Positions 5,591 to 50,700 of a DNA stretch of 64,000 nucleotides are shown here, piece after piece. Both the position numbers and the translations under genes were made by a program. Within the stretch, counting starts at the first letter, position 1. Each line of letters starts with the position of its first letter. The notes under the pieces are model-generated. The model saw nothing but the letters and a program-made list of their open reading frames with translations. It was not told the origin of the DNA and ran no database searches. The stretch lies in IMG/VR virus record IMGVR_UViG_3300046009_002028, positions 273-64,272 of that record. One strand, given 5' to 3'. This stretch comes from a virus. Its lineage: Duplodnaviria; Caudoviricetes.

Positions 5591-5812
5591 TCATACTGCC
5601 TCCCTAATTGCTTGTAGTGCCTTATCGGTTAACCGAAAGGTAGTGTGTGGTGGGGCAAACCCTTGTTGTAAATACTCACTGTCTGCGTATTCGTTTAGGA
5701 TAAAGAACCGAAGTAGATTGGCATTCTCTAAGTCGTTGAACGATACATACTCTTGACCAAACAACAATGCCCATGTGCTAAGCCCCTCGAGGGCTTTTTT
5801 AGGTAGCGTCAT
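5591..5812 (-). CDS. hypothetical protein
   Basis: TAATG-coupled to the VWA gene. Confidence 0.6.
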   Translation of the reverse strand: MTLPKKALEGLSTWALLFGQEYVSFNDLENANLLRFFILNEYADSEYLQQGFAPPHTTFRLTDKALQAIREAV

Positions 5813-7035
5813 TAGAAGTCCCCCTCTACATTAATACGCACTGTCTTACCATGCGGTGCTACTACGTCCGTAGTCATTATCCATAGTGATGGGATATCGA
5901 ACACAGGGAAGCTATCCACATAGCCATCGCTAATCATAAGCAAGCACTCGTGGTTCATAGTCTTGTTAGCGGTTAGCCAGTCGGCAACACACTGTGGGCT
6001 AGTGCCACCACCACCCTTAGCGCGTAGCACATTGTCGATATTGTCATACTGACCCTGCTCGAAAGACTGCACACTGCACACCTCGTTATCCCACCAAATC
6101 ACATCAAGCCCTGCAGGGTTGACCTCTATGCATAACTTCTTAACCTCACCCATGCTACGCGCTATGATGTCGCCACCGATACTGCCCGATGCGTCAATCC
6201 CCACTGCAAGTCGTCCGCATGTTGTTGATACTGCGCTAGGGAAGTAACCGACATGGAACATGCGTCTGTTAATCTTAGACCAACTGCTCTCGTCGCGCCC
6301 TGCCATGACTTGCTTGAGGAACTCTGCCATCTCTTTCTTGTAGTCCACCTTGCCGTCAAGCATGCCGTCGAATAGTCGTGATTGGTTGCCGTCCATCTTG
6401 CCTGCCAATGACTTACCTTGTCGGATAGCAATCTCGATGTCTTTCTCTAGGCTAGCTTTCTCGTCATCGGATAGGTCGCCACCCTCCCAGTCATGTTCGT
6501 CAGTGCCACCCGATTTAGGGTAGCCCTCGGTAATCTCGTTACCGTTATTATCTTTAGGGTTATCACCTTGACCACCGCCACCATCACCGCCATCGCCACC
6601 CTCATCGTCGCCTTGTTCCTTACCCTCGAGGTCTTTGAATATCGCGGTAACTGTCCAACCATAATACTTAGGATTGTATAGCCCACCCTTAATCATCTTG
6701 ATAAAACCCTTACGCGCATCTTGCTTGATAAGCTCACCGTTAATCCAGTAATCACACGCGGCATTAGCGCGTTGCCCATCTAAGGTATGCATAGCTTTGT
6801 ATACATACATGTGTCGTGCCATCTTGTGCATGTTCTCATGCAAGATAAGAAAGCGTAGCTCGGGGTCGGGCAAGTCATTGCAGAACTCTGCGCCATACCA
6901 CACATTCTTACCATCAGTGCATGCTGTCGGTGTGTCATCAACTTTCCATGTGCCGAAGCACAACACACCACTCATTGCTACCCAGTCGGGGTTACCCATT
7001 ATGGATATGTATTGCTTTTTGATATTCTTAACCAT
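5812..7035 (-). CDS. DUF2201-type putative metallopeptidase plus VWA domain protein
   Basis: TACTDG, HENMH (HExxH), N.A.D..IN, acidic linker, MIDAS DASGS, GGGGT, SDGY. Confidence 0.9.
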   Translation of the reverse strand: MVKNIKKQYISIMGNPDWVAMSGVLCFGTWKVDDTPTACTDGKNVWYGAEFCNDLPDPELRFLILHENMHKMARHMYVYKAMHTLDGQRANAACDYWINGELIKQDARKGFIKMIKGGLYNPKYYGWTVTAIFKDLEGKEQGDDEGGDGGDGGGGQGDNPKDNNGNEITEGYPKSGGTDEHDWEGGDLSDDEKASLEKDIEIAIRQGKSLAGKMDGNQSRLFDGMLDGKVDYKKEMAEFLKQVMAGRDESSWSKINRRMFHVGYFPSAVSTTCGRLAVGIDASGSIGGDIIARSMGEVKKLCIEVNPAGLDVIWWDNEVCSVQSFEQGQYDNIDNVLRAKGGGGTSPQCVADWLTANKTMNHECLLMISDGYVDSFPVFDIPSLWIMTTDVVAPHGKTVRINVEGDF

Positions 7036-7074: not shown

Positions 7075-7350
7075 TTATAACGCTTGCATATAAAGTTTGC
7101 GGTTGTAGTATTCCAAATTTTTCAGTATGTCTAATAGAATATTTTCAACCGTTTGTTGACGCCTTCTTAATGGCTGAATCCGACTCATTTCAAAACGAAA
7201 GTCAATGTGTTTCTCAAGTGTTATCGGGCTTTCCACCATGCATGTGGGACGCATTATGTAATACTGCCGTGCGTCCCTTACAATTTTTAAGTCGTATAAC
7301 TTAAGCACATCGTTGGCAGATTTTACTGATACCTTTGCCATGATTACCAA
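7075..7350 (-). CDS. hypothetical protein
   Basis: ORF in operon. Confidence 0.55.
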   Translation of the reverse strand: MVIMAKVSVKSANDVLKLYDLKIVRDARQYYIMRPTCMVESPITLEKHIDFRFEMSRIQPLRRRQQTVENILLDILKNLEYYNRKLYMQAL

Positions 7351-8204
7351 CCCAATTTGTCGTGCAAGGTATCAACGCTAGCCTTTACCTTATTACGCAG
7401 TCCATCAGAACTCTTGAGGTCGTCAGTCGTAACACCCATCAGTGCCTCCTCTAGTTTCTGTCTAGCCCAGTCAAGGTCGGGGTCGTTCGTTACATTCATT
7501 ACCTTGAGCATTTCGCATAGCTCTACTGCGTTATCTAAGACGCTGTCGTATATCTTTTTCTTGCCACCGTCCTCGTTATCCGCGTAGCGTTCGCTGATAT
7601 GCTTAGTAACTTTATACAATCTATCCCATAGGTCGCCCATTGCCTGTGCTGTGCGTTCCTCATACACTCGGGCATACTCTTTGCTTAGCTCGTCTGCAAT
7701 GTCATGCCCTACATCTACTCGGAAATCACCGCGTTCGGGTAACGGCACGAAACAGAACTTGAAGTTGAACCTGTCCAAGATAGTGTGTGCATCGGGATAC
7801 TCACTGCGGTCGAACATAGTCCCCATACGAAACGCTTGCGCTGATACCAAGCTCGGATAGATTACTGCGAAGTCATTGGCTAACTGGCTCATCTCTCCAG
7901 CCTTAGTGTTTAGCCAGTCCTTTACTGGTATGAAGTTACGGATATCACACAGACGCTGACCGCCATCATTCCAAGGCAATGTCTTAGCGTAGAACTCCAC
8001 GCGAGTGTTGGCTACCCACTTCTGTATCTTTTCTAACTGCTCGACGCCTGCGAACAATGACTTGTTGAAACGCCCTGCTTGGTCGTCCGCACCTTTGGCT
8101 GTCGTTACCTCTTTAGAAACTTTCTTATCTAGTTTGCGGAAGCTAGGCACACTGATGTTTAGCTCGCATAGTATTGCTTGATTGCTTAAGTTGATTTTGT
8201 CCAT
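7344..8204 (-). CDS. helical protein associated with the AAA/VWA pair (DUF3150-like, tentative)
   Basis: 286-aa ORF between the ATPase and VWA genes; TLPW, F..(S)EYP and N.TNDP motifs. Confidence 0.7.
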   Translation of the reverse strand: MDKINLSNQAILCELNISVPSFRKLDKKVSKEVTTAKGADDQAGRFNKSLFAGVEQLEKIQKWVANTRVEFYAKTLPWNDGGQRLCDIRNFIPVKDWLNTKAGEMSQLANDFAVIYPSLVSAQAFRMGTMFDRSEYPDAHTILDRFNFKFCFVPLPERGDFRVDVGHDIADELSKEYARVYEERTAQAMGDLWDRLYKVTKHISERYADNEDGGKKKIYDSVLDNAVELCEMLKVMNVTNDPDLDWARQKLEEALMGVTTDDLKSSDGLRNKVKASVDTLHDKLGW

Positions 8205-8269: not shown

Positions 8270-9340
8270 TTAGATAAATTCCTTAGTGAATGATGTTACC
8301 CAGTCGCGCATTGCTTGACTACGCATAGCGATGGTCGGCTTGCTTTTGAATATCATGCGTCCTGTTACGGCTTGTATCTCCGCCTCAAGTCTGCACATGT
8401 AAGTAGTCGTAGCGTCTGCGTTGTCATTGTCTAGCCCCGATGCTAGGCGAGTAGCTAACAACAACTGACTAGCTAGGCTGTCTGGCACACGCGCTTGGTC
8501 GGGTGTCTTATATATAGATGACCGAGTAGGTAGGCTGTCTGCTAGCTCTACTGTTGCCCATAATTCACCAGTAGCAGGTGCGCCTATCGCGCCACATATA
8601 TGCGCCATTGCTTGCGGTCTAGTTAGCTTGCCTGCCTCCATCATGTTGAGTGTGTTACTAGCAAACCAAAAGCTACGATTGGAACAAAACGCGCCTGTGT
8701 TGCTGTTAGGATTGAACACATACTTATTGGTCTTGCGTTCCTCCTCTGTCATGTCCACATAGCTAGCGCACACCTCGGGGTTCTCACCAATGAAATACAC
8801 AAGCGTTCCGTTCATACCTCGCGCAGTCCCGAACTCAACCACATCGTGCGCGGTCGGCTTACTCACATGATTGACATGCACACGATTATTTAACAGTGCT
8901 TGGAATGTATCGCCCACACCATCTGTCGTTAGGTTACTGGTAGCAAATACTATAGAACCCTTAGGGATTGGTTTGTCTGACACTGTGCGTTCTAGCAAGA
9001 ACCTAGTAATCATTGGTTTGGTAACGCCCGACATCTTGCCTATCTCGTCCACCATGTATAGCTGTGGCTTGTCGCTGTCCAAGTGCCAACGCTGATGATA
9101 GGCATTATGTGTTACACCATCTACCACGCTAGGCATGTAGAAGTCGGGGAAGTCAAGCAAGGGTGCGTCTAGATACACGCATTGGTCATCACCCCAACCA
9201 AGTTTGGCTAGTATCTCGTGGCGGATTGAACTCTTACCAATTCCCGGCTCGCCTAACAAGATTGTTGTCGTTACATCACCTGTTGCCGCGATGATTGAAG
9301 CCGCATCGGCTAGTGTTATTACATTATTGATACCATTCAT
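8270..9340 (-). CDS. MoxR-like AAA+ ATPase
   Basis: Walker A GEPGIGKS, Walker B YMVDE, sensor ATSN, arginine finger LNNR, SNRS. Confidence 0.9.
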   Translation of the reverse strand: MNGINNVITLADAASIIAATGDVTTTILLGEPGIGKSSIRHEILAKLGWGDDQCVYLDAPLLDFPDFYMPSVVDGVTHNAYHQRWHLDSDKPQLYMVDEIGKMSGVTKPMITRFLLERTVSDKPIPKGSIVFATSNLTTDGVGDTFQALLNNRVHVNHVSKPTAHDVVEFGTARGMNGTLVYFIGENPEVCASYVDMTEEERKTNKYVFNPNSNTGAFCSNRSFWFASNTLNMMEAGKLTRPQAMAHICGAIGAPATGELWATVELADSLPTRSSIYKTPDQARVPDSLASQLLLATRLASGLDNDNADATTTYMCRLEAEIQAVTGRMIFKSKPTIAMRSQAMRDWVTSFTKEFI

Positions 9341-19177: not shown

Positions 19178-19780
19178 ATGGCTACTACAGCAGCCCCATA
19201 CGGTCTACGTCCTATTAACCTAATTGGTGGTCAGCAATTTGCTGGCTCAACACGTCAATTAAAAATCGCTAGCGGTTACGCTGCTAACATTTTTTACGGT
19301 GACGTTGTTGCAATTGGTACAGACGGAACTATCGTAAAAGTAACAAACGTAGGTACAAACGCGGATGCATTCCCAGCTGGTACAGTTGGTGTGTTCTTAG
19401 GTTGTTCATACACAAGCCCATCATTAGGCTATTTCTTGCAAGCACAATACTGGCCTACCGGTACTGTTGCTTCAAACGCTACAGCTTATGTATGTGATGA
19501 CCCAGATGCATTGTTCCAAATCCAAGCAGATGATGCTGTGACTCAAACAATGCTAGGTTCTAACTTTGGCGTGAATCAAACAGCAGGTTCTACAACTACT
19601 GGCGATTCAAAAATATCATTAGACGTTGGCACCCGTGCTACAACAAACACTATCGCATTGCGTTTAGTGGATTTCGTAAACGGCCCATTCTCTACTGTTG
19701 GTGACGCATACACTGATTGTATCGTTAAATTTAACTTTGGTATCCATACGTATTACAATGGTACCGGTGTTGGCGATTAA
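19178..19780 (+). CDS. probable capsid decoration/cement protein
   Basis: Beta-rich, Gly/Thr-rich; directly before the capsid gene; strong RBS. Confidence 0.65.
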   Translation: MATTAAPYGLRPINLIGGQQFAGSTRQLKIASGYAANIFYGDVVAIGTDGTIVKVTNVGTNADAFPAGTVGVFLGCSYTSPSLGYFLQAQYWPTGTVASNATAYVCDDPDALFQIQADDAVTQTMLGSNFGVNQTAGSTTTGDSKISLDVGTRATTNTIALRLVDFVNGPFSTVGDAYTDCIVKFNFGIHTYYNGTGVGD

Positions 19781-19792
19781 GGAGAATAAATA

Positions 19793-20707
19793 ATGGCTAT
19801 TTCACGCGCACAGTTACTTAAAGAACTATTACCAGGCTTAAATGCTTTGTTTGGTCTAGAGTACAAACGTTATGGTGAAGAACATCAAGAGATTTACGAA
19901 ACTGAATCTTCTGAGCGTTCCTTCGAAGAAGAAACAAAATTGTCTGGCTTCTCAGCAGCTCCTGTTAAAAACGAAGGCAACGCCATCGCTTACGACAATG
20001 CTCAAGAAGCTTGGACAGCTCGCTACACACACGAAACTATTGCTCTTGGCTTCAGCTTAACTGAAGAAGCTGTAGAAGATAACTTGTATGACACATTGTC
20101 TGCTCGTTATACTAAAGCATTAGCTCGTGCTATGGCGTACACAAAACAAGTTAAAGCAGCTAACGTATTGAACAACGGTTTCAACACCTCTGGTTCATAC
20201 AACGGTGGTGATGGTGTGCCATTGTTCTCAGCTTCTCACCCACTTGTTACAGGCGGTGTAAACAGCAACATTCCAACAACCCCAGCGGATTTGAACGAAA
20301 CTTCTTTAGAAGCAGCTGTTATCCAAATCGCAGCATGGACTGATGAGCGTGGTCTGTTAATTGCAGCAAAACCAGCTAAATTGATTATCCCACCAGCATT
20401 GCAATTCGTTGCAACCCGCTTGTTGGAAACTGAATTGCGTGTTGGTACTGCTGACAATGATGTCAACGCATTGAAAAACAACGGTTCAATCCCAGAAGGT
20501 TACGCAATTAACCACTTCTTGACCGACACAAATGCGTGGTTCTTAACAACTGATGTTCCTAACGGCATGAAACACTTTGTTCGTAGCCCACTAGGTACTT
20601 CAATGGATGGCGACTTTGACACTGGTAACGTACGTTACAAAGCCCGTGAGCGTTATTCATTCGGTTGGTCTGACCCATTAGGTATGTTTGGTTCAGCTGG
20701 TGCTTAA
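19793..20707 (+). CDS. major capsid protein
   Basis: MAISRAQLLKELLPGLNALFG N-terminus, 304 aa, strongly biased codons, followed by a terminator. Confidence 0.92.
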   Translation: MAISRAQLLKELLPGLNALFGLEYKRYGEEHQEIYETESSERSFEEETKLSGFSAAPVKNEGNAIAYDNAQEAWTARYTHETIALGFSLTEEAVEDNLYDTLSARYTKALARAMAYTKQVKAANVLNNGFNTSGSYNGGDGVPLFSASHPLVTGGVNSNIPTTPADLNETSLEAAVIQIAAWTDERGLLIAAKPAKLIIPPALQFVATRLLETELRVGTADNDVNALKNNGSIPEGYAINHFLTDTNAWFLTTDVPNGMKHFVRSPLGTSMDGDFDTGNVRYKARERYSFGWSDPLGMFGSAGA

Positions 20708-20724
20708 TAAGTACTAGGTAAGAT

Positions 20725-20752
20725 AAGAGGCTCACTTCGGTGGGCCTTTTTT
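20725..20752 (+). terminator. Rho-independent terminator after the capsid gene
   Basis: aggctcac-TTCG-gtgggcct-ttttt. Confidence 0.9.
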
Positions 20753-20766
20753 AATGGTTTTCCGTA

Positions 20767-20794
20767 TTGTGATATGTATAAAAAAGAACATAAT
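20767..20794 (+). promoter_or_regulatory. possible promoter for pqqA (TTGTGA-16-CATAAT)
   Basis: Imperfect hexamers between the capsid terminator and the pqqA RBS. Confidence 0.4.
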
Positions 20795-20840
20795 TCGTAC
20801 ATATACACACGACGTGTATAAAAAACAGGAGAATTTGAAC

Positions 20841-20912
20841 ATGTGGACATCACCAGCAGCTACTGAAATGCGTTTTGGCTTTGAAGTTACAATGTACGTA
20901 ATGAACAAATAG
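20841..20912 (+). CDS. pqqA: pyrroloquinoline quinone precursor peptide PqqA (MWTSPAATEMRFGFEVTMYVMNK)
   Basis: Manual translation; W-x-x-P leader, RFGFEVTMY with the E-x-x-x-Y core, 23 aa, AGGAGA RBS at 20827-20832. Confidence 0.95.
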   Translation: MWTSPAATEMRFGFEVTMYVMNK

Positions 20913-20932
20913 TCTAAACATTTGTTTAAACA

Positions 20933-21022
20933 TAGGCGGTTAAGCCGACATTAGAGGATGTAGTAAGTAACGAGTTTTTCGGCTTTCTGCGTTACATGTA
21001 ACAACTACCAAATCTACGCCTA
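20933..21022 (+). ncRNA. candidate structured RNA with pseudoknot, downstream of pqqA
   Basis: Nested helices TAGGCG/CGCCTA, TAGA/TCTA, GTAGT/ACTAC, GTAACG/CGTTAC plus crossing AAGCCGA/TCGGCTT. Confidence 0.55.
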
Positions 21023-21029
21023 ATTTATA

Positions 21030-21058
21030 TTGACAACTCCATAAAACGCTAGTATAAA
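21030..21058 (+). promoter_or_regulatory. sigma70 promoter TTGACA-17-TATAAA
   Basis: ttgaca actccataaaacgctag tataaa. Confidence 0.8.
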
Positions 21059-21069
21059 GGCTATATCAA

Positions 21070-21145
21070 CCGGGAAATTAAATCCGGCTTATTAGACTGT
21101 CCCGGCGGACGCATACAAGACTAGTAGGCTTACTTTGTATGGAGA
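21070..21145 (+). promoter_or_regulatory. structured 5' leader, candidate cis-regulatory RNA
   Basis: CCGGGA/TCCCGG, GCTTATTAG/CTAGTAGGC and CATACAAG/TTTGTATG, the last abutting the GGAGA RBS. Confidence 0.45.
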
Positions 21146-21152
21146 AATTCAA

Positions 21153-21608
21153 ATGGCTAATACCACATTCAGCGGCCCAATACGTGCCGGTAACATCCGC
21201 AACACAACAGGTACTACAGTAGGCACTAACATTGCTAACGTAGGTCAAGTTGTAATGGCACAATCACAAAAAGTATTACAATCCTCAGCTGCAACTACAA
21301 TCGTAATTCCAGCAAACAGCCAAATCGTCGAAATGACTTTATATGTAACCACTGTATGGGATGGCGTAGCTTCAACTCTAGGTCTAGGTAACACTGCATT
21401 AGCAACTGCATACACTGCAGCTGGTGCGGTAGCCGGTGGTACAGTAGGTGTTGTTTCAGTAACCCCAGGCACAGACGCAACTCGCACATTAGCTTTTGTT
21501 GATGTAGGTGCAACAGACGTTAAAATTGTTGTAACTTCAACCAACACTGGCGCTGGTGTAGGCTACTTAACAGTTCGTTACGTTCAAGCTAACAACTTAG
21601 TTGCTTAA
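21153..21608 (+). CDS. virion structural protein (capsid-associated); start reassigned to ATG 21153
   Basis: MANTTFSGPIRAG N-terminus; GGAGA RBS at 21141-21145; capsid-like codon bias. Confidence 0.75.
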   Translation: MANTTFSGPIRAGNIRNTTGTTVGTNIANVGQVVMAQSQKVLQSSAATTIVIPANSQIVEMTLYVTTVWDGVASTLGLGNTALATAYTAAGAVAGGTVGVVSVTPGTDATRTLAFVDVGATDVKIVVTSTNTGAGVGYLTVRYVQANNLVA

Positions 21609-21654
21609 TTAATCTAGGGGCTTCGGCCCCGCTTATAATCTAAGGAGATTAATT

Positions 21655-21939
21655 ATGGCAATGCAATATGATGTAAAAGCAACACATCTTACGGCTGACG
21701 GAGTAGTATCAGCTAATCCAGCTCGTTTAAAGGCTATCTCGTATAGAGGTAACGGTCTTGATGGAAACGTGTCAATTAAAAATGGTGGCGCTTCAGGAAC
21801 TACATTATTAGAACTTGATGTAGGTACAAGTGATTCATTTACTATATATGTATTGTTACCTGGCGAAGGCATTCGTTTCGATACTAATATTTATGCTGAC
21901 CTGACTAATGTTTCTGCAATAACAGCATTTTACGGCTAA
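21655..21939 (+). CDS. small structural protein
   Basis: AAGGAG RBS; P.EGIRF..(.)IY motif; follows a UUCG hairpin at 21617-21630. Confidence 0.7.
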   Translation: MAMQYDVKATHLTADGVVSANPARLKAISYRGNGLDGNVSIKNGGASGTTLLELDVGTSDSFTIYVLLPGEGIRFDTNIYADLTNVSAITAFYG

Positions 21940-32243: not shown

Positions 32244-33815
32244 ATGGCAAGTACCTATTCACCACTAAAAATTGAGCTTATTACCACTGGCGAGCAATCG
32301 GGTACGTGGGGTTCAACCACAAACGTTAATCTAGGCACAGCGCTTGAAGAAGCTATTACTGGGTCTGCCAATGTTACCTTTGCTAGTGCTAACGTCACTC
32401 TAACATTAACGGATACTAACGGAACGCAAACTGCTCGCAACCTACGACTACGCTTAACCGGAACTACAGCTGGCGCTAGAAACTTAATTGTACCTGCGAT
32501 AGAAAAACAATACATCGTGCAGAATGACTGTGCTGATGCAGTTACAATAAAAAACGCTACAGGTACCGGTGTAGCCGTACCACCAACAATGTCAGCCGTT
32601 GTGTTCAATGATGGTACAAATATAACCAGTGCGGCAGTGTATTCAACCTCAGTAGTAACACCTACCCTAGCGGCAACTGACGCGGTATTTATCAATGCAC
32701 TACCTGTTACTTCTGGTGGTACGGGGGTTACAACTGCAACAGGTACGGGTGCAGTAGTTCGTGCAGTTAGTCCAGCGTTAACAACCCCAGCACTGGGTAC
32801 TCCGACATCAGGCACACTAACAAGTTGTACAGGTCTTCCACTATCTACAGGTGTGACTGGTACATTAGGTGTCACTAACGGCGGTACTGGAGTAACTACA
32901 TCTACAGGTTCAGGTAGCAATGTTTTAAGCACTTCCCCTACCCTAGTTACACCGGCTTTAGGTACCCCATCCGCATTGGTGCTTACTAATGCAACAGGTC
33001 TTCCTATGTCTACCGGCGTTACTGGCACATTAGGGGTTACTAATGGTGGTACGGGGGTTACAACATCTACCGGCTCCGGCAGTAATGTACTCTCAACAAG
33101 CCCCACTCTAGTCACCCCGATATTAGGCACTCCGACATCAGGCACATTAACTAACTGTACTGGCCTTCCCATTGCTACAGGTGTTTCAGGTCTTGGTACG
33201 GGGGTAGCCACATTCTTAGCAACACCATCAAGTGCTAACCTTGCCGCCGCTGTTACAAATGAAACGGGTTCAGGTGCATTGGTATTTGCCACAAGCCCTA
33301 CTTTAGTTACACCGGTATTAGGTACTCCGTCCAGCGGCACATTAACAAGCTGTACGGGCCTTCCATTAACTACAGGTGTTACAGGTACGCTCGCAGTTGC
33401 TAATGGTGGTACAGGTGTGACTACGTCAACGGGTTCAGGCAATGTGGTGTTGTCGACAAGCCCAACACTAGTAACCCCAAACCTAGGAACCCCTAGTACT
33501 TTAGTAGGGACAAACATCACAGGTACCGCAGCGGGGCTTTCTATTGGTGGGAATGCTGCAACAGCCTCTAACCCTATCGGTGAAGGACAAACCTGGCAAA
33601 CTGTAACTAGGTTAGCTAATACTAACTATACAAACTCTACCGGCAAATCTATTATGGTATCTTTATATGCATTGGGGACGTTGCAGCTTACGGTCGATGG
33701 GCTTATCGTTGCCCAAAGTACTGTAAATAATGCGGGTAATAGTATAACTGCAATAGTTCAAAATGGGTCTGTATACTCATGTAACCAGGCCGCGTGGGTA
33801 GCTGAATTACGCTAA
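32244..33815 (+). CDS. tail fibre protein, paralog A
   Basis: MASTYS.LKIEL..TGEQSGTWG anchor; repeated TGLP.STGVTGTL.V.NGGTG...SPTLVTP.LGTP shaft. Confidence 0.85.
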   Translation: MASTYSPLKIELITTGEQSGTWGSTTNVNLGTALEEAITGSANVTFASANVTLTLTDTNGTQTARNLRLRLTGTTAGARNLIVPAIEKQYIVQNDCADAVTIKNATGTGVAVPPTMSAVVFNDGTNITSAAVYSTSVVTPTLAATDAVFINALPVTSGGTGVTTATGTGAVVRAVSPALTTPALGTPTSGTLTSCTGLPLSTGVTGTLGVTNGGTGVTTSTGSGSNVLSTSPTLVTPALGTPSALVLTNATGLPMSTGVTGTLGVTNGGTGVTTSTGSGSNVLSTSPTLVTPILGTPTSGTLTNCTGLPIATGVSGLGTGVATFLATPSSANLAAAVTNETGSGALVFATSPTLVTPVLGTPSSGTLTSCTGLPLTTGVTGTLAVANGGTGVTTSTGSGNVVLSTSPTLVTPNLGTPSTLVGTNITGTAAGLSIGGNAATASNPIGEGQTWQTVTRLANTNYTNSTGKSIMVSLYALGTLQLTVDGLIVAQSTVNNAGNSITAIVQNGSVYSCNQAAWVAELR

Positions 33816-34189: not shown

Positions 34190-36010
34190 ATGGCAAGTAC
34201 CTATTCACCACTTAAGATAGAGCTAATCACTACCGGGGAACAATCCGGTACGTGGGGGTCAACTACGAACGTCAACTTGGGCACTGCTATTGGAGAGGCA
34301 ATTACCGGGTCTGCAGATGTAACTTTTGCCAGTGCTAACGTAACACTAACCCTAACAGATACCAACGGGACGCAAACTGCGCGTAACCTACGTTTGCGCT
34401 TGACAGGTACAACTGGCGGAGCCAGAGACTTAATCGTTCCTAATATTGAAAAGCAATACATCGTACAAAACGATACTGCAAATACTGTTACTATTAAAAA
34501 CTCTACGGGTACAGGCGTTGCAATACCATCTTCAGTATCGGCAATTGTATTTAATGACGGCGTAAATATAACCAGTGCAGGTACGTATTCAACATCAATA
34601 GTGACACCTCTATTAGCGGCTACAGATGCAGCGTTTGTAAATGCCCTCCCAGTTACATCAGGTGGTACAGGTGTTACGACCGCTACGGGTACAGGGTCTG
34701 TAGTACGTGCGGTTAGTCCATCTATAACTAGCCCAACATTAACAACCCCAGCATTAGGCACACCAGCGTCTGGAGTTTTAACTAGCTGTACCGGGCTTCC
34801 GTTATCCACTGGTATCGTCGGCACATTAGGTGTTACCAATGGTGGTACAGGTGTTACGACTTCTACTGGTTCTGGCAGTAATGTGCTTAATACATCGCCA
34901 ACTCTAGTTACTCCATTGTTGGGAACCCCGACATCAGGTACTTTAACTAACTGTACAGGACTTCCAGTATCTTCTGGAGTTTCAGGCTTAGGCACGGGGA
35001 TTGCAACCTTTTTAACCACCCCTTCTAGTGCTAACTTAGCAGCTGCTGTAACAGGTGAAACCGGGTCCGGCGCATTAGTATTCGCCACCAGCCCTACATT
35101 GGTAACGCCTGTATTGGGCACTCCTTCTTCAGGCACACTAACGAGTTGTACCGGGCTTCCGCTGACCACAGGCGTTACAGGTACTCTTCCCGTTGCTAAT
35201 GGCGGTACAGGTGTAACTACAAGCACTGGTACAGGCAATGTGGTGTTATCTACAAGCCCCACATTAGTAACACCTATTTTAGGAACACCCACATCAGGTA
35301 CTTTAACTAACTGTACGTTTCCAACACTTAACCAAAATACAACTGGCAACGCAGCAACGGCAACGCTAGCGGCGACCGCTACAAACGCTTTAGCTTGCTC
35401 AGGAAACTCAGCTACTGCCACTCAATTTTCCACCGCTAGTGGCTCTGCACCCTCATACGGAACAAGGGCTTGGGTTAACTTTAACGGCGCTATTGCATCA
35501 GTTAATAACTTGACAGGTACATACGTCAGACTAGCTGCAAGTTCAACGGTAACGGTTACAGCAACAGCACACGGGCAATTAGTAGGAAGCCAAGTTTATT
35601 TAGATTTTACTACGGGTACGGGGTTAGATGGGATATACACGGTAGTTTCCGCCGCCGATGCAAATACATTTACTGTTACAACCGTGGCCACCACTGCAAC
35701 AAGCGGTAACGTAAGTCTTCGTCGCTGCAGTATTAGAGCAAGTGGTAACGTTAGTTCTGTAGCCTATCTATCTGCTGGAGACTATGCAATTAATTTTACA
35801 ACTGCTATGCCCGATGCCAATTTTAGTTTAAGTGGTGCTGTCGATGGGTGGTCAATTGCGGGCATGAATAACGGTTTATATAGTGTTGGAATCGTTACGT
35901 TAGCAACTACCTATGCGCGTGTATATGCAATTGGAACTAACGGTGGTGGTAATAACACGGCTTTTTACATAGCAGATACTCCTACTATTACGGCGCAAAT
36001 AATACGATGA
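34190..36010 (+). CDS. tail fibre protein, paralog B
   Basis: Same anchor and shaft as paralog A; different C-terminal domain. Confidence 0.85.
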   Translation: MASTYSPLKIELITTGEQSGTWGSTTNVNLGTAIGEAITGSADVTFASANVTLTLTDTNGTQTARNLRLRLTGTTGGARDLIVPNIEKQYIVQNDTANTVTIKNSTGTGVAIPSSVSAIVFNDGVNITSAGTYSTSIVTPLLAATDAAFVNALPVTSGGTGVTTATGTGSVVRAVSPSITSPTLTTPALGTPASGVLTSCTGLPLSTGIVGTLGVTNGGTGVTTSTGSGSNVLNTSPTLVTPLLGTPTSGTLTNCTGLPVSSGVSGLGTGIATFLTTPSSANLAAAVTGETGSGALVFATSPTLVTPVLGTPSSGTLTSCTGLPLTTGVTGTLPVANGGTGVTTSTGTGNVVLSTSPTLVTPILGTPTSGTLTNCTFPTLNQNTTGNAATATLAATATNALACSGNSATATQFSTASGSAPSYGTRAWVNFNGAIASVNNLTGTYVRLAASSTVTVTATAHGQLVGSQVYLDFTTGTGLDGIYTVVSAADANTFTVTTVATTATSGNVSLRRCSIRASGNVSSVAYLSAGDYAINFTTAMPDANFSLSGAVDGWSIAGMNNGLYSVGIVTLATTYARVYAIGTNGGGNNTAFYIADTPTITAQIIR

Positions 36011-44746: not shown

Positions 44747-47700
44747 ATGGCAAAAAACATGCTTTATGATTTTGAAGCTAATGGACGTATTTATACATTT
44801 GAAGGTCCAGAAGGGCTTGACCCAACTGCGTTTTCTTCAGCATTACAGCAACAAATTGCAATTGACAACGCACCAAAAACAGGTGGTATGGGTGAAGCCT
44901 TTAAAGGTACGGCTAAACGCTTGCTATCTTCCGGTAGAACCGCGCTTGAGTCTGTAATTGACCCTGATAAAGCAGCAGTCGCTGGGCTTGAACGCCAAAA
45001 GGCCATTACTGAATTACCCGGTGGTAGCTTAGCTGAAGTTCAACGTATCTACGAGGAACAAGGCATATTACCTGCTGCATGGGAAGGCCTTAAACAAGCA
45101 CCAGCTGTTATCTCTGGGCAAATACCCCAACTAGGTGGAATGTTTGCTGCAGGAACTGCCGCTGCCGCCGTAACCCCTCCAGTACTACCAATTGTTGGGC
45201 CATTCGCTAAACCTATTGCAGGTGTATTAGGTGGCCTAGCGTCATTAGCTATTCCTCAAACCGGTACGAATATAGAGCGTCAAGCGCAAGTACAACAAGA
45301 AGCTGGGCTACCAGTAGATGTTAGTATGGCAAAAGCAGTCCCTGCAGCAATAGGTTCCGCAGCATTAGACCAAGTTGCATTGTTAGCGGGTGGACTAGGT
45401 AAAGTACTGGGCATTGGTGTTAAAGAACTTGGCACTGTAGCTGCAGAAAGAATTGCTAAAGAATCGCTATTAAAAGCTAGCACTAAAGGCGTTGGTAAGA
45501 CAGCCCTAGCCGAAATGCCAACCGAAGTATCTCAACAAATGCTTGAACGTGCACAAGCAGGCTTACCATTAACTACACCAGACGCAATACAAGAATACGC
45601 TGACGCTGCGTATCAAGCACTGTTAATGTCACCACTAGGCGGGTTAGGTGGAGTAAGTTCACGCAGCCAAGCCAAAGGCCAAGTAGCTGCAGCCCAAGCA
45701 CTTAAAGACCAAGCAGCAGCTGATAAAACCTATGCAATAGAACAAGCTAAAGGGTTTAGAGACCAAGCGCGTGAAGACCGTGCAGGCACACAGGCCGTTC
45801 AAGAAGAGATTGCAAGACAAGCTACCGAGACTAAACAGCAGGCAGTGGATGTGCTACAACAAGTAGCTGCTAAGAAACAAGCTGAAGCAGGTATCCCAGC
45901 AGTTAACGACTTAATGCAAACAAAAGAAGGCGCATCGCAACTTCTATCAGACAAGGGATTGTTTGAATATCACTTCCCCAAAACACAATATACCGCAGAC
46001 GATATCAAACAACTTAAAAACGATATCCGTGCTCGCCGCAACACACTACCGTCACAAGAGTCTATTGCACGGGCTACTACACAGGCTGAGTTAGAGCAAA
46101 CATTCGCGGTTGACCCGAACACAATTACCCCCGAACTAATAGATATGTGGGGTATAACTAAGGGTAACAAAAAACTACGCAATAAATTGTTAGCTGTGAG
46201 CGACTTAACTGTTCCTGATAACAAAGTTAAAGCAACTGAATTACTAGAAGATTACAAACAAACTGCATCAGCAAAACAACTTAGCGCTGCTGAAACGGCT
46301 ACGCAACATATTGCGAACCTAGAACCAGTGTCTGTGGAGGCCCCAAATGTTGGACTTAACGAGCGAACAAATAGAGCAAGCGTTCCAGTTCTTGATGAAC
46401 GGGGACAAGTATCCCCCGCTGGAATTGCAGGAGTTGAGCCAGCTACACTGGGCGATGTTGGAGACAGCACTGGACTTCTTACTGATGGAACAGAGCAGCA
46501 GCCAGCTGCATTAGTAGAAGAATCACCTGCGGCAGTGCAGGCGCGTGTTCAAGCCCGTATCCTTGAGAAACGTCAGGCAGAAGAAGCAGCACGTGCAGAA
46601 GAAAAGGCAGCTAACTTAGCAGCAGTGCAGGCAGAACAAAAAGTAGCTAGGGGTAAAATAATTGCCCCAACAGCCGCCCCAGAAATCGCGCCAGATATCC
46701 AACAAGATGTCGCCGAAACACAGGCACGTGAGGCAGAGTTAAGCCCATTAGCTGACACTGAGTCAACACTGATTGAACCATACGCACCAGCAGACGAGAA
46801 TATCCTTGCGTCAGCGGCAGGCAAAAAGAAAGCGCGTAAACCAAAATACGCAATGCCAGAACGCATTGAGCCTAGTGATACTTCAGCATCTGTTGAAGCT
46901 ATTCAAACGGAATTAAACACCCTATTTACCCCACAACAACTCAAAGCACGTCCACCTGTTGTCGTTGATACGGTTGAAGAGTTACCTGCAAACTTGCAAG
47001 CTGAAGCTACTGAAGCCGATGCCGCTGCGTTCGTAGACCCAACTACTAAACAAGAATACTACGTTGCTAGTAAGATACCTAGCAATGACATTCGCGGTAA
47101 AATCCAGCATGAACGTGGTGCGCACGTTGGGCTAACCAAGCTAATTGGTAAAGACAGAGTTAATGCGCTTGCTAACCGTGTGCTTACATGGGCTACCGAA
47201 GTGGGTGGTAAAAAGATAGAGCATGTCATTGCTAGAGAGGCGCATGAGAAAGCCCTCATGTCAGGGGAAACAGAAGGGTCTGAACGCTACAACCAAGAAG
47301 TAATTGCGTACTTTACAGAGATTGCAGTTAACCGTTATGGTATTGACCCACTAAAAGCGCAGCCTAAAGAGTTTGCAAAAGTTGCTGGTTGGTTGAAAGA
47401 ACTATGGAACGGCATACTAGCTACGCTTAAAAAACTGCATTACGACCCAAGCAAACTAACTGCTAAAGAAATCGTAGACCTTGTATACGGTGCAGCACGT
47501 ATTGCAAACAAAGCAGAACCAAGCGCGGTAGGTGTGCAGGCTGAAGCGACACCAACATTATCGGATAATGATTTAACAATACTAGTCGGGTTATTGCAAT
47601 CTCCCACCCCACATGAATCAAAAGAATCTACGGGTCCTGAAACTAGCACTAAGATACAGTCATCATCAGCTTCTAGTATGATGCATGACCTAGGGTTCAA

Positions 47701-50700
47701 AAATGACCCTATTAAACGTGCGTTTATAAATCAGTTTTATAATGAGATTAAACAATACGGATATACCGCTAAAGCAGTTACAAGGTTTATTGATAATGTT
47801 GGGACTATGGGATTTCTTGTACCTACCGCAAACGTATCTGAAGAACGTATATTAAGTCAACTTCCAGAAAAAACATTATTCAATGCAGTCAATGCAGATT
47901 ATGCAACGCGTGAAATTTGGGAAAACCCTAAACAAGCAGCGGAGCAAGCATCAGCCAGAGTTAATCGCGTTCGTAACGACAATTACAGGCGTACAACTCG
48001 AAGTATGTACCATATGCAATTTGATTACTATCATTTTAGCCAAGAAGAATTTCAAATGGCTGAATCATTAATTGCTTTTTTAACCAGTAAATATAGTATG
48101 GTTGGCGATGCAATAAAAGAAATGACTGATAAGAATGAGTATCTACCTGTAATTGAGTTATCCGAAGAGTTTGTTAATCAATTTATGAGGCTATTAGAAC
48201 AAGGAAATTCACCAAAGAATTCTTATGCCAAAGCATACAAACAAACAATTTTGGCGCCAAGAGATGGGATTATTGAAGCTGCATTAGGCCAAAATAAAAC
48301 TGGGTGGATGCATTTCTCAGGGGTAGATGACGCCGATAGATTAACTATGGTTGCTTCAGATACCGGCACTACTGCACAATCCCCGTGGTGTATTGGGAAC
48401 TCATCACAAGACTTTTCCAGAAGATATTTAGAAAAAGGTGAATTCTACTTATATATTGACCGTGGAAATTCAATAGTTTCTGCGCGTTTTGAAGATGCTA
48501 ACCCTAATTACCTTGAAGAATTTTCGGGATTAGGGGTGGGGGTTAACCAAAAGGTACCTAAAGAACATACAAAATACCTGTATGAACTAGACCGTGTTAT
48601 GGGGCGCCCAATCGATATTAGTAAATACGAACAACAATCCAGCACATCAGTAGCTACTGTAGAAGACGCAAAAATTAACGACGCTGGTGAAAAAATTAAA
48701 ATAGGAATGTCTAGCCCAAAAGATTTTCGGGCGTTGCTTGAGGAGTATGCTAAGGCTCCATACGATTCCGAACTACGTAAATTACTAGATAGCCGAAATA
48801 GGGATATTATATTTGATGTATTAGGGGTTTCTAAAGCGTTCAAACAAACTTTTGATGTTTGGAAACCGGAATTAAAAACCGCTAATACTGAGCCAACTAT
48901 CTATGAAGTAATGCCACAAATAACTGACAAGTACGAAAATGTTTCGGAGGCAGCTGGGCATGTGATAGCCGTACCAGTTAATGTTACAAAGTTTGAATCA
49001 TTACCAAAAGAACTGTATCAAAAACTAACTAAATTAAAACAAGAAGTTCTTAATGCTCCGGACATATATACAGGTAAAGCCGATGAGGTAAACAGCCTTT
49101 CAGAAATAGTTTTCTATGCAAAAACTGACTCTGCAGATTTTCGCGGTTCAAATTTAAATAAATTAATTTCAAGTCTTCATCGGGACTATGATGAAGAAGT
49201 GGCATTTAGAAAACCGTTTGAAGAATGGTACGACACTTTGAAAACGTCAAGTGAAATGGGGCTTGTTGATTTAGATGTTCCCGCGCACAGACTGTCTGCA
49301 GAAGTTTTTGATAGTGGGACTGGAGGGGTAGAGGTCAAAGTCGGTGCTTTATCACTTTTTAAAGAATTTTTGCCAGACGAAAACATTCTGTCTGCTTATC
49401 ATAAATTTAACGAACTTGTAGCCGAAACTAAAGCAAATAAAGTAAAATCTGTAGCAGATAAGGCAGCAGACGATGCAGAGATTAGGGGGGCATTTGTCAA
49501 ACAAGGTATTCAGCCATCTGCCGCACCAAAAACCGCGTTAAAACGCCCCGATGGTACTGAGATTAAATTCAAGCAGCAAGAGAAAGAAACCCTATGGGAA
49601 AACTTAGCGGATGTATTTAATGGCTCTAGCACTCCTTGGCGTTCACTCATGGATATGCTTGGCAATAAGATTGTTACTGGTCGATACACAGTAGAGCGTA
49701 AAGCTATTGATGCGGGCTTATCAGCAACTGACGCCAAACAGCAAGGCAAGATTCGTGCTGACCTTATCGGGCTACAAGCCACAAACGCTATGTCTCTTGC
49801 GCAAGCAGGGTTGTTCTACGGTAAATTAGTCCTACGTAAGAGTGGGATTATTCGTGCTGAAAAAGGCAACGTCAATATGGTTGACCTAGGCAACGAGTGG
49901 CATACGCTTTTGGAAAAGGCTACCCGAGATTTAGGTAGCGCCGACCGTGCATACGATATGCTTTCAGCCGGTTGGTATGGTCCGCGTTATGAGGACTTAG
50001 CGAAACACAATGCTAACACTGCGCCTAAAAACCGCGTTGATATTAGTGATTGGACTGACTCTGATAAACAAACAAGTGCAGAAGCATGGAGAAGGTACGG
50101 TCCAGAACTAACTAAACTGCGTGATATGCGTAACGAAATGCGGGGTTCAGTGCTTGATTTGATGGTGCAGAGTGGCTTATATACCCGTGACGTTGCTAAA
50201 GAATATTTAGACCGCATGGACTACGTGCCGTTGTACCGCATACAGGAAAAAGACTTGTTGGATAAGCAAGGTCGTCCACTACGCGTAAGCACAGGGTTGT
50301 TGGGTGTGGGTAGAGAGTTTCACCTTAAAGGGTCTAGTAAAACAGCGAATGACCCGCTACAAAACTACATTGCTAACATGTCATGGATGATGCAACGCGC
50401 CATTAAAAACAATGCTGCCATACATACTGCGGACATGCTCGATGCACTTGGTCAGGGATACTGGTCTAAAAACAAAGTGCCATCAGGTAAAAAGCAATCC
50501 ATGCATGTTGCCAGCATATTTAAAGATGGTGTTGAAAAAGACTTTGTAATGTATGACCCCAACGACATGGCGGCATTCTCTGCATCTCCAATTATTTCGG
50601 GGTTGGTGTGGGATTTGATGCGCTATCCTGTATCTGGATTACGTCATGGTATTACTATGATGCCACAGTTCGTATTCAATCAGGCTATGGAAGACCCCGT

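What the first reader, a model, noticed from the sequence alone, without database searches (positions are those of the whole stretch)
20841..20912. Phage-encoded PqqA, the precursor peptide of the redox cofactor PQQ, hidden below the ORF cut-off
Seen: AGGAGA RBS, then ATG...TAG encoding MWTSPAATEMRFGFEVTMYVMNK. Established: PqqA peptides are about 23-30 aa with a W-x-x-P leader and an E-x-x-x-Y core. PqqE/PqqD cross-link the Glu and Tyr, which are excised to form PQQ, the cofactor of methanol dehydrogenases (MxaF, XoxF). One peptide is consumed per cofactor. From memory, this peptide closely resembles Methylophilaceae PqqA. Inference: the phage supplies only the consumable substrate (no pqqB-E recognised in the window) to raise PQQ and methanol oxidation in a methylotroph host. 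Novelty needs a literature check, since viral pqqA may already be noted in freshwater metagenomes.
Basis: partly seen in the sequence, partly recalled or inferred. Interest (0 to 1): 0.93.

Follow-up and report, generated by a model that had tools for sequence, protein, structure and literature searches.

The report
Phage-borne PQQ precursor gene pqqA
A complete 64-kb freshwater phage carries, right after its capsid gene, an intact 23-codon copy of pqqA, the small peptide that methanol-eating bacteria use up to make the cofactor PQQ; the gene is real and conserved, but viral copies of it have been reported before.

Summary
Window 20841-20912 (+) encodes the stated 23-residue peptide behind an AGGAGA ribosome site. 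It scores well above the curated cut-offs of both PqqA models: Pfam 37.9 vs 21.1 bits, TIGR02107 34.4 vs 20.

The window is a virus record that CheckV rates 100% complete. It has no radical-SAM, PqqB, PqqC, PqqD, PQQ-dehydrogenase or integrase gene.

The peptide differs by one residue from the commonest Methylophilaceae PqqA. In a sample of that family, 57 of 61 genomes carry PqqE and 61 of 61 carry pqqA, with 1-12 matches each.

The same ORF occurs in at least 119 other IMG/VR contigs and in nine cultured Methylophilales/Methylophilaceae phage records, never annotated on the right strand. Viral copies show purifying selection and 119 of 119 have a Shine-Dalgarno-like site.

Here pqqA is a roughly 320-bp cassette between the capsid gene and the next promoter. 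It is absent from 70 of 72 phages with a similar capsid protein, and those have higher GC.

Best reading: an auxiliary gene that supplies the consumable PQQ precursor to host enzymes. Function and expression are not shown. Viral PqqA was published in 2020 (PMC7678222), and this scan has noted it on many other genomes. It is a new member of a known kind.

The parts
19793..20707 (+). Major capsid protein gene, directly upstream of the pqqA cassette
   Evidence: phrog_371 major head protein, E=3.7e-21. 84-96% aa identity to the 80 best IMG/VR relatives kept, out of at least 599.
20725..20751 (+). G+C-rich hairpin followed by a T run, terminator-like, after the capsid gene
   Evidence: Sequence. 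An 11-bp stem appears in the RNA fold. The same hairpin is in the pqqA-positive relative L248. The consensus terminator scanner did not list it.
20708..21029 (+). The pqqA cassette: present here and in L248 and L256, replaced by about 60-100 nt (a hairpin only) in five pqqA-negative relatives
   Evidence: Alignment A1 and blastn end points.
20767..20794 (+). Weak sigma-70-like promoter match (TTGTGA-16-CATAAT) upstream of pqqA
   Evidence: 9 of 12 positions match. The region held 5 such sites against 4.0 expected from shuffles, so this is not evidence by itself.
20827..20832 (+). Shine-Dalgarno AGGAGA, 8 nt before the ATG
   Evidence: A Shine-Dalgarno-like 4-mer lies upstream of 119 of 119 viral pqqA copies that had enough upstream sequence.
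20841..20912 (+). pqqA: 23 codons plus TAG, with cross-link residues E15 and Y19
21030..21058 (+). TTGACA-17-TATAAA promoter-like site for the downstream virion genes, conserved in position in relatives with and without pqqA
   Evidence: Read and aligned. The scanner does not list it because its second hexamer must end in T.
21081..21152 (+). Conserved structured leader in front of the next gene (ATG at 21153). Not part of pqqA; it marks the right-hand border of the variable slot.
   Evidence: Conserved in 8 of 8 aligned relatives. RNAalifold predicts 14 pairs, 4 with compensatory changes. No Rfam family matches.

Best explanation
This is a functional phage copy of pqqA that acts as an auxiliary metabolic gene. 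Shown: the ORF is a bona fide PqqA. It sits inside a complete phage genome. The phage lacks all PQQ-processing enzymes. Methylophilaceae have those enzymes and keep several pqqA copies. Inferred: the gene is transcribed late, either by read-through from the capsid gene past a terminator-like hairpin or from a weak promoter of its own, and is translated from its AGGAGA site. Host PqqD then binds the leader and host PqqE (radical SAM) cross-links E15 to Y19. Host peptidases, PqqB and PqqC finish PQQ (pathway from established knowledge and from passages in PMC7678222 and PMC9851590). One peptide is destroyed per cofactor. Once phage infection shuts down host transcription, the short-lived precursor would be the first part of the pathway to run out. 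A phage copy would keep PQQ, and so periplasmic methanol dehydrogenase (XoxF/MxaF) and energy supply, going until lysis. Within this capsid family the roughly 320-bp cassette marks the low-GC members, which presumably infect Methylophilaceae.
For: Identity: scores above both curated cut-offs.

Viral setting: terminase, portal and capsid genes lie upstream and virion and tail genes downstream. The replication genes are DNA pol A, DUF927 primase-helicase, SNF2 helicase and a PD-(D/E)XK nuclease. CheckV rates the record 100% complete.

Substrate only: 0 matches in the record for Radical_SAM, PqqD, TENA/PqqC, PQQ_2 and PqqB.

Host type: a pattern specific for this peptide type hit at least 120 genome stretches. 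Nearly all of the 80 listed titles are Methylophilaceae. The window peptide differs at one position (S4) from the commonest bacterial form (79 of 128 copies).

Host machinery: the PqqE equivalog scores over its cut-off in 57 of 61 sampled genomes of that family. PqqA is in 61 of 61, with 1-12 matches per genome and a median of 4. Even a 1.3-Mb genome has 3. Beck et al. 2014 report 3-12 pqqA copies but single pqqBCDEFG (PMC4109929, passages).

Selection: there are 104 distinct nucleotide versions among 112 standard-length viral copies. pS is 0.57 and pN/pS is 0.17. On codons the search pattern did not fix, pN/pS is 0.23, and on the free core codons 0.08. R11 and F14, which the pattern left free, are invariant in 104 of 104. 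A Shine-Dalgarno-like site lies upstream of 119 of 119 copies.

Recurrence: the pqqA-bearing loci fall into 16 context groups, including four different cultured phage types.

Synteny: in 16 of 18 related pqqA-bearing loci the gene sits just downstream of the capsid gene.
Against: No direct evidence of expression or function. The RNA-library contigs laid hold exact pieces of this phage's head genes. However, the contigs over pqqA mostly match only the 72-nt ORF and have other flanks, so they come from other pqqA loci. Contigs cannot show transcription of this copy, and RNA libraries can hold DNA.

The promoter match is no better than chance.

I could not establish that PQQ turns over fast enough to matter within a latent period; PQQ is a fairly stable cofactor.

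Part of the residue invariance follows from the search pattern itself (W, P, E/D9, G13, E15, V16, T17 and Y19 were fixed).

The host is inferred only from the peptide type, GC content and habitat of the sequencing runs, not from a culture.
Confidence: 0.72

Rival explanations
1. A selectively neutral passenger: a recently captured scrap of host DNA sitting in a variable slot after the capsid gene, with no role in infection.
For: The slot after the capsid gene varies between relatives in length and content. Host genomes hold many dispersed copies that could be picked up. The window copy is 95.8% identical at nucleotide level to some Methylotenera copies.
Against: Viral copies have diverged strongly at synonymous sites (pS 0.57) while keeping the peptide (pN/pS 0.17-0.23). 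Every copy keeps its start, stop and Shine-Dalgarno-like site: 119 of 120 IMG/VR loci gave an intact ORF, and 119 of 119 had the site. The gene recurs in unrelated phage types. Only 1 of 104 viral nucleotide versions is shared with the bacterial sample.
Confidence: 0.08
2. A DNA-level role: the 72-nt stretch serves as homology for recombination or integration into the multi-copy host pqqA loci (att-like), and the coding capacity is incidental.
For: Exact runs of up to 58 nt are shared with bacterial loci, all of them inside the ORF. Hosts have 1-12 dispersed target copies.
Against: No tyrosine integrase in the record. Serine recombinases were not searched. Homology ends at the ORF borders. A DNA target would not preserve the reading frame, the Shine-Dalgarno site and the amino acids while synonymous sites drift. 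Only 1 of 120 bacterial pqqA loci had 3 or more ORFs like those of pqqA-bearing viral loci, so bacterial copies are rarely next to prophage genes. A T4-like lytic phage (Melnitz) also carries the gene.
Confidence: 0.04
3. The peptide is made but does not feed PQQ synthesis. Instead it acts as a decoy or regulator, for example by occupying host PqqD/PqqE, or as a substrate for another modification.
For: Viral leaders vary more than bacterial ones: 52 distinct peptides in 120 viral copies against 11 full-length forms in 128 bacterial copies. The bacterial pattern fixed the C-terminal half, so this comparison is only fair for positions 4 and 6-8. Leader pN/pS is 0.38 against 0.05-0.08 in the core.
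Against: The core and the cross-link residues match the host's, and the window peptide differs from the main host form at a single position that also varies among host copies. A decoy that is a perfect substrate would simply be turned into PQQ. The record holds no radical-SAM gene or other PQQ-type modifying enzyme among the families searched.
Confidence: 0.08
4. Assembly artefact: a metagenomic mis-join at the conserved 72-nt repeat placed a host or foreign pqqA in a phage contig.
For: pqqA is a near-identical repeat shared by many genomes in one sample. Many RNA-library contigs end at the ORF borders.
Against: Independent contigs repeat the same order of capsid gene, pqqA, then the same downstream virion genes: L042/L248 (capsid 96%, next gene 92%), L069 (98%, 78%) and others. 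pqqA-negative relatives keep the same flanking genes in the same order. DNA runs of several coded studies hold 0.72-0.84 of the words of 19793-21700; one of them may be the source sample.
Confidence: 0.02

Closest known systems
Viral PqqA of Lake Baikal viral population VP_266 (Coutinho et al. 2020, Microbiome; PMC7678222, passages read)
   Same: A PqqA precursor peptide gene in an uncultured freshwater virus predicted to infect Methylophilaceae. The authors interpret it as an auxiliary gene that supports methanol dehydrogenase.
   Different: The Baikal viruses described also carry methanol dehydrogenase and other methylotrophy-related genes. This phage carries pqqA alone and belongs to a different, roughly 64-kb type related distantly to HTVC023P/HTVC027P (portal up to 44% identical). 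I did not compare sequences with VP_266 itself.
Stand-alone ('orphan') pqqA copies of Methylophilaceae chromosomes (Beck et al. 2014, PMC4109929, passages read)
   Same: Same peptide type, one residue from the commonest form. A stand-alone 23-codon gene away from pqqBCDE, present in several copies per genome.
   Different: Here it is carried on a virus and flanked by virion genes. The S4 variant was seen in 5 viral loci, including this one, and in 0 of 128 bacterial copies sampled.
Unannotated pqqA ORFs of cultured Methylophilales/Methylophilaceae phages (P19250A, MEP301, Venkman, MEP401/402, Melnitz)
   Same: An intact 23-24-codon pqqA, 73-96% identical to the window peptide.
   Different: Different phage types and different genome positions: near recombination genes, at a genome end, or between tRNA genes. 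None has this phage's capsid-adjacent arrangement. None is annotated on the right strand. The isolate papers held in the library contain no word starting with 'pqq' except as a medium ingredient.
psbA (photosystem II D1) of cyanophages: an analogy recalled from general knowledge, not tested here
   Same: The phage carries the fast-consumed component of the host's energy-harvesting machinery and leaves the rest to the host.
   Different: PqqA is a sacrificial biosynthetic substrate of 23 residues, not a structural subunit. Turnover of PQQ during infection has not been shown.

Membership tests
PqqA (Pfam PF08042 / NCBIfam TIGR02107 equivalog) | Score above the curated cut-off of the family model | tested here: met
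   PF08042 37.9 bits vs 21.1. TIGR02107 34.4 bits vs 20. A six-frame search of the whole record gave 35.7 bits.
PqqA (Pfam PF08042 / NCBIfam TIGR02107 equivalog) | Short peptide (about 20-30 residues) with a conserved Glu and Tyr spaced E-x-x-x-Y that form the PQQ skeleton | tested here: met
   23 residues with E15-V-T-M-Y19. The definition of the motif comes from established knowledge.
PqqA (Pfam PF08042 / NCBIfam TIGR02107 equivalog) | Near-identity to PqqA of organisms that make PQQ | tested here: met
   One residue from the commonest Methylophilaceae peptide. In that family PqqE scores over its cut-off in 57 of 61 genomes.
PqqA (Pfam PF08042 / NCBIfam TIGR02107 equivalog) | Genomic association with pqqBCDE | tested here: not met
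   No PqqB, C, D or E in the phage. This is not disqualifying, because Methylophilaceae themselves keep most pqqA copies away from the operon (PMC4109929).
PqqA (Pfam PF08042 / NCBIfam TIGR02107 equivalog) | Bound by PqqD, cross-linked by PqqE and converted to PQQ | not testable with these tools
   Needs biochemistry. Complex prediction asks for chains of 30 residues or more and the peptide has 23, so no job was sent.
Phage auxiliary metabolic gene | Encoded inside a bona fide viral genome with viral genes on both sides | tested here: met
   The same arrangement appears in independent contigs.
Phage auxiliary metabolic gene | Maintained by purifying selection in viral lineages | tested here: met
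   pN/pS 0.17 overall and 0.23 on codons not fixed by the search pattern. 104 distinct nucleotide versions.
Phage auxiliary metabolic gene | Expressed during infection and changing host metabolism | tested here: inconclusive
   the head genes occur as exact contigs in RNA libraries, but no listed contig ties this pqqA copy to its flanks, and contigs cannot show transcription.

The most novel reading that the evidence does not exclude
pqqA is the signature gene of phages that infect Methylophilaceae. It has been acquired independently by at least five or six unrelated phage types and has been overlooked in the cultured ones that carry it. Within this widespread capsid family, gaining the roughly 320-bp cassette went with the move onto methylotroph hosts. 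That would mean the sacrificial peptide, not any enzyme, is the first component of methanol oxidation to fail in an infected cell. It would also mean a 72-nt gene can serve as a host-prediction marker for uncultured viruses.
Probability: 0.4. Interest if true: 0.62.

Novelty: new member of a known kind. Interest (0 to 1): 0.42.

Why it matters
Methylophilaceae (OM43 in the sea, LD28 and Methylotenera in lakes) are major consumers of methanol, and their methanol dehydrogenase is among their most expressed genes (PMC5120137, passages). A phage gene that tops up the one consumable input of PQQ synthesis would be a compact example of a virus sustaining host energy metabolism.

Because the gene has only 23 codons, gene callers and AMG surveys miss it. 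It is unannotated, or called on the wrong strand, in every cultured phage record examined.

For this window the added points are these. It is a further phage type with no cultured member. The insertion site after the capsid gene is precisely delimited. Cassette presence tracks low GC across a capsid family that spans phages with GC from 37% to 56%. Cultured host-phage pairs exist, so the hypothesis can be tested directly.

Tried and rejected
I used the documented DNA-pattern scan instead.

I followed the error text, obtained handles, then ran the family-level searches.

The consensus scanner found no terminator in 19700-21700, although the hairpin at 20725-20751 is plain in the sequence and in the fold. 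The whole cassette does not fold better than shuffles (z = -1.5), so I claim no RNA structure for it.

Expression: 7 of 20 listed runs are RNA libraries. I laid 4 of them, of which three come from one sample. They hold exact contigs of the head genes. Summed depth is high in the bin containing pqqA, but loose ends at 20840/20841 and 20908-20913 show that these are mostly other pqqA loci. Lower cover downstream of pqqA is not usable as evidence, because these are contigs rather than reads. No conclusion on expression of this copy.

The careful maximum-likelihood tree did not finish in 300 s, so only the quick tree (SH-aLRT support) is reported. The clade holding 9 of the 12 pqqA-positive rows has support 90, below the starred level. 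Rows left out were capsid genes that were incomplete or not matched over residues 3-298.

I first read '70 of 72 relatives lack pqqA' as loss among close kin. One search corrected this. Two complete 'relatives' share only the capsid protein at high identity (88-90%). Their other genes are 25-67% identical or unmatched, and their GC is 50-56%. They are therefore distant phages with a conserved capsid.

Rfam (gathering thresholds) and tRNA scans of the window found nothing.

Complex prediction, structure prediction, the search for homologous proteins, the search of protein representatives and the protein-atlas search were not used. The peptide is too short or the answer was already clear.

I cannot claim that all cultured phages of this host group carry pqqA. 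NCBI taxonomy lists further names (HIM624-A, MEP431-434, Venkman EXVC038S) that were not among the hits, and I could not tell whether they are in the collection. Three weak hits (two Acinetobacter phage records at E=0.05, one Escherichia phage at E=10) were not examined.

The claim that nothing beyond Coutinho 2020 is in print rests on searches of the held library only. One search listed 25 of 60 papers. PMC13188868, which holds both 'pqqA' and 'AMGs', was seen only in the listing. Supplements were closed and may list viral pqqA.

Full report
OBSERVATION. AGGAGA lies at 20827-20832, ATG at 20841 and TAG at 20910-20912, and the product is MWTSPAATEMRFGFEVTMYVMNK. It matches the full Pfam PqqA model (PF08042, 37.9 bits, gathering score 21.1, E=1.7e-9). 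It also matches the NCBIfam equivalog TIGR02107 (34.4 bits, cut-off 20). A degenerate 54-nt pattern for the conserved residues hits the window once and hits none of 100 shuffles. A longer in-frame ORF from an ATG at 20754 is not conserved in other loci. A 58-codon ORF on the opposite strand (20732-20908) is the kind of call that has displaced pqqA in two GenBank phage records.

SETTING. The window is bases 273-64272 of a 64,272-base IMG/VR virus record. CheckV rates it 100% complete, and it is linear without terminal repeats.
- The + strand from 12.7 to 52.1 kb carries large terminase, portal, a GroES-like gene, major capsid protein (19793-20707), virion and tail-fibre genes and a 2463-codon ORF.
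- The - strand arms carry DNA polymerase A, a DUF927 primase-helicase, an SNF2 helicase, a PD-(D/E)XK nuclease and a DUF2201 metallopeptidase/VWA protein.
- There is no tyrosine integrase, no tRNA and no Rfam match.
- The portal protein is at most 44% identical to those of Pelagibacter phages HTVC027P/HTVC023P, Planktothrix phage Pag-Yong1 and similar 52-65-kb phages. No cultured phage is close.
- Six-frame searches of the whole record found no Radical_SAM, PqqD, TENA/PqqC, PQQ_2 dehydrogenase repeat or PqqB. The named control genomes did ring in each of these searches.

The phage therefore carries the precursor peptide and nothing else of the pathway.

WHOSE PEPTIDE IT IS. Nearly all of the 80 listed titles are Methylophilaceae: Methylotenera, Methylophilus, Methylobacillus, Ca. 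Methylopumilus, OM43. A few are vaguely or oddly labelled MAGs. Among the 128 bacterial copies in those loci, 79 have T at position 4 and 35 have K. The window has S there and is otherwise identical. The exact window peptide occurs in 5 viral loci, its own included, and in none of the 128 bacterial copies. The best nucleotide identity to a bacterial copy is 95.8%, to four Methylotenera MAG loci. Homology does not extend beyond the ORF. The window has 44.1% GC, and the sequencing runs that hold the region are labelled lake or freshwater. A freshwater Methylophilaceae host, perhaps Methylotenera-like, is the likely one, but this is inference.

THE HOST SIDE. I sampled 61 genomes of the family of Ca. 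Methylopumilus universalis.
- The PqqE equivalog scores above its cut-off in 57 of them.
- PqqA is found in all 61, with 1-12 matches per genome and a median of 4. The tool warns that matches are not strict copy numbers.
- A 1.3-Mb streamlined genome still has three dispersed copies.
- This agrees with Beck et al. 2014: 3-12 pqqA copies but single pqqBCDEFG in Methylophilaceae (PMC4109929, passages).

Gene dosage of the precursor evidently matters to these bacteria.

HOW COMMON IT IS IN VIRUSES. tblastn against 50,697 GenBank phage records gave 13 records with a match.
- Ten are full-length matches with E of 1e-4 or better: Methylophilaceae phage P19250A, Methylophilales phages MEP301, Venkman, MEP401, MEP402 and four Melnitz isolates, and one uncultured spring-water phage.
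- In the six regions I fetched, the ORF is intact with a start and a stop.
- In those regions it is either unannotated or overlapped by a 'hypothetical protein' on the other strand.

119 of the 120 gave an ATG-to-stop ORF of 23-25 codons in my script. One locus, L066, gave no match and was not followed up. Together with the window's own copy that makes 120 viral copies, and all of them are of the Methylophilaceae type.

SELECTION.
- Of the 120 viral copies (the 119 IMG/VR loci plus the window's own), 112 have the standard 72-nt length, and they comprise 104 different nucleotide sequences. Only one of these is shared with the bacterial sample.
- Pairwise pS is 0.57 and pN is 0.095, so pN/pS is 0.17.
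- Because the search pattern fixed eight residues, I recomputed on the 14 free codons and got 0.23. On the five free core codons the value is 0.08.
- R11 and F14, which the pattern left free, are invariant in 104 of 104.
- A Shine-Dalgarno-like 4-mer precedes 119 of 119 copies that have enough upstream sequence.

This is the signature of a translated gene. It does not fit a DNA or RNA element or a decaying fragment.

ANATOMY OF THE CASSETTE IN THIS PHAGE TYPE. In 16 of 18 pqqA-bearing loci that share genes with the window, pqqA lies directly downstream of the capsid gene. The alignment compares the window, two pqqA-positive relatives and five pqqA-negative ones. All share the 3' end of the capsid gene. 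Further on they share a promoter-like site (TTGACA-17-TATAAA at 21030-58 in the window), then a strongly conserved leader (21081-21152), then the next gene (ATG at 21153). Between the capsid stop and that promoter, the negative phages have only a hairpin of about 60-100 nt. The positive ones have a hairpin, about 90 nt containing a weak promoter match, the Shine-Dalgarno site, pqqA, and a trailer. In L248 and L256 the trailer ends in a clear terminator; in the window it does not. So pqqA is a self-contained insertion of roughly 320 bp (20708-21029). It could be transcribed by read-through from the most heavily expressed late gene or from its own start.

WHO HAS THE CASSETTE. The capsid protein has relatives in at least 599 IMG/VR contigs. 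The best 80 are 84-96% identical.
- Of the 72 with at least 260 nt after the gene, 2 have pqqA and 70 do not. The other 8 were too short to judge.
- The PqqA model found nothing in five larger negative records, three of them 99-100% complete. A positive record searched the same way did ring.
- These are not close kin. Two complete negative genomes share 88-90% identity in the capsid protein but only 25-67% in terminase, portal, polymerase and helicases. They share nothing in many tail and early genes, and they have 50% and 56% GC.
- Across the capsid family, the 16 pqqA-positive loci have 37-44% GC (median 39.5) and the 70 negative loci have 39-56.5% (median 48.9). Mann-Whitney p is 2e-9, though kin share GC, so the rows are not independent.
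- On a quick capsid tree, 9 of the 12 positive rows fall in one clade of 10 rows (support 90). The label needs 5 changes where shuffles need 11.5 on average, and 0 of 500 shuffles were as low. Well-supported branches force only 2 changes.

The simplest reading is that a very conserved capsid is shared by phages of many hosts, and that the cassette belongs to the low-GC branch infecting Methylophilaceae, with a few extra gains or exchanges.

MECHANISM. The established part is the pathway. PqqD binds PqqA and the radical-SAM enzyme PqqE cross-links the Glu and Tyr. Peptidases, PqqB and PqqC then complete PQQ, so one peptide is consumed per cofactor (general knowledge; PMC7678222 and PMC9851590 passages). 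The inferred part is that the phage peptide enters this host pathway and keeps PQQ, and with it methanol dehydrogenase, supplied while host gene expression declines. In OM43, methanol dehydrogenase xoxF is the most abundant transcript (PMC5120137), which shows how central the reaction is. I could not show expression of this copy. RNA-library contigs include exact pieces of the phage's head genes, but over pqqA they are dominated by other pqqA loci with different flanks.

RIVALS. Four alternatives were weighed.
- A neutral passenger is unlikely, given the selection signal and the recurrence in unrelated phages.
- An att-like DNA role is unlikely. There is no tyrosine integrase, homology stops at the ORF, the frame and ribosome site are conserved, and only 1 of 120 bacterial pqqA loci looks phage-associated.
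- A decoy or regulator cannot be excluded, but it has little support beyond the greater variability of viral leaders.
- An assembly chimera is contradicted by the same gene order in independent contigs.

NOVELTY. Viral PqqA is in print. Coutinho et al. 2020 describe it in a Baikal virus of Methylophilaceae and propose the same role. In the held library I found no other paper reporting it. The isolate papers do not mention it; one search returns only the Melnitz paper, where PQQ is a medium ingredient. This scan has already recorded phage pqqA in 107 notes on at least 79 other genomes, with follow-ups reaching the same reading. I rechecked the main claims independently here. This window adds three things: a further, uncultured phage type, an exact delimitation of the insertion, and the link between the cassette and low GC within a broad capsid family. 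It is a new member of a known kind, of moderate interest.

Noticed in passing
window 21081-21152 (and L248, L256, L260, L290, L298, L301, L322): A strongly conserved leader sits in front of the gene after the capsid gene (ATG at 21153). It is present in 8 of 8 aligned relatives whether or not they carry pqqA. RNAalifold predicts 14 pairs, 4 with compensatory changes. No Rfam family matches. It may be a translational operator or an RNA-processing site of the late transcript.
   Followed up: partly
window 19793-20707; G066, G067 (L328-L335): The major capsid protein is 84-96% identical in the best 80 of at least 599 IMG/VR contigs with a relative. Yet two complete genomes with 88-90% identical capsids share only 25-67% identity in other genes and differ by 6-11 points of GC. 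The capsid gene is either unusually conserved or exchanged among phages of different hosts.
   Followed up: partly
window 20732-20908 (-); L246 3961-4056 (-); L247 2067-2195 (-): Gene callers place a 'hypothetical protein' on the strand opposite to pqqA in Melnitz (MelnitzEXVC044M_152) and in the spring-water phage MW202481 (UOF77531.1). The window has a comparable 58-codon antisense ORF. These are probably false calls that hide pqqA.
   Followed up: partly
window 20841-20912, runs X5, X7, X8, X17: Metatranscriptome contigs that match only the 72-nt ORF and diverge on both sides are numerous and deep. Many different pqqA loci, from hosts or other phages, are therefore represented in the same RNA libraries.
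   Followed up: no
L193: A 12-kb contig of a genome assembly labelled only 'Gammaproteobacteria bacterium' carries pqqA and has 15 ORFs similar to ORFs of pqqA-bearing viral loci. It is probably a phage contig or prophage inside a bacterial assembly.
   Followed up: no
window 32244-33815 and 34190-36010: Two adjacent large genes share the same N-terminal family (phrog_31104) but have different C-terminal parts, one of them tail-fibre-like. They look like paired receptor-binding proteins with a common anchor.
   Followed up: no
window 44747-52138: A 2463-codon ORF at the end of the virion module. Only its last 650 residues or so match a PHROG of unknown function (phrog_9854).
   Followed up: no
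window 5812-7035: A DUF2201 metallopeptidase/VWA-like protein lies in the early arm. The two neighbouring large ORFs (7344-8204, 8270-9340) have no Pfam match.
   Followed up: no
hits H11 and H12: Two records named Acinetobacter phage MD-2021a give a weak PqqA-like tblastn hit (72% identity over 18 residues, E=0.05). This could be a pqqA in a phage or prophage of another PQQ-making genus.
   Followed up: no
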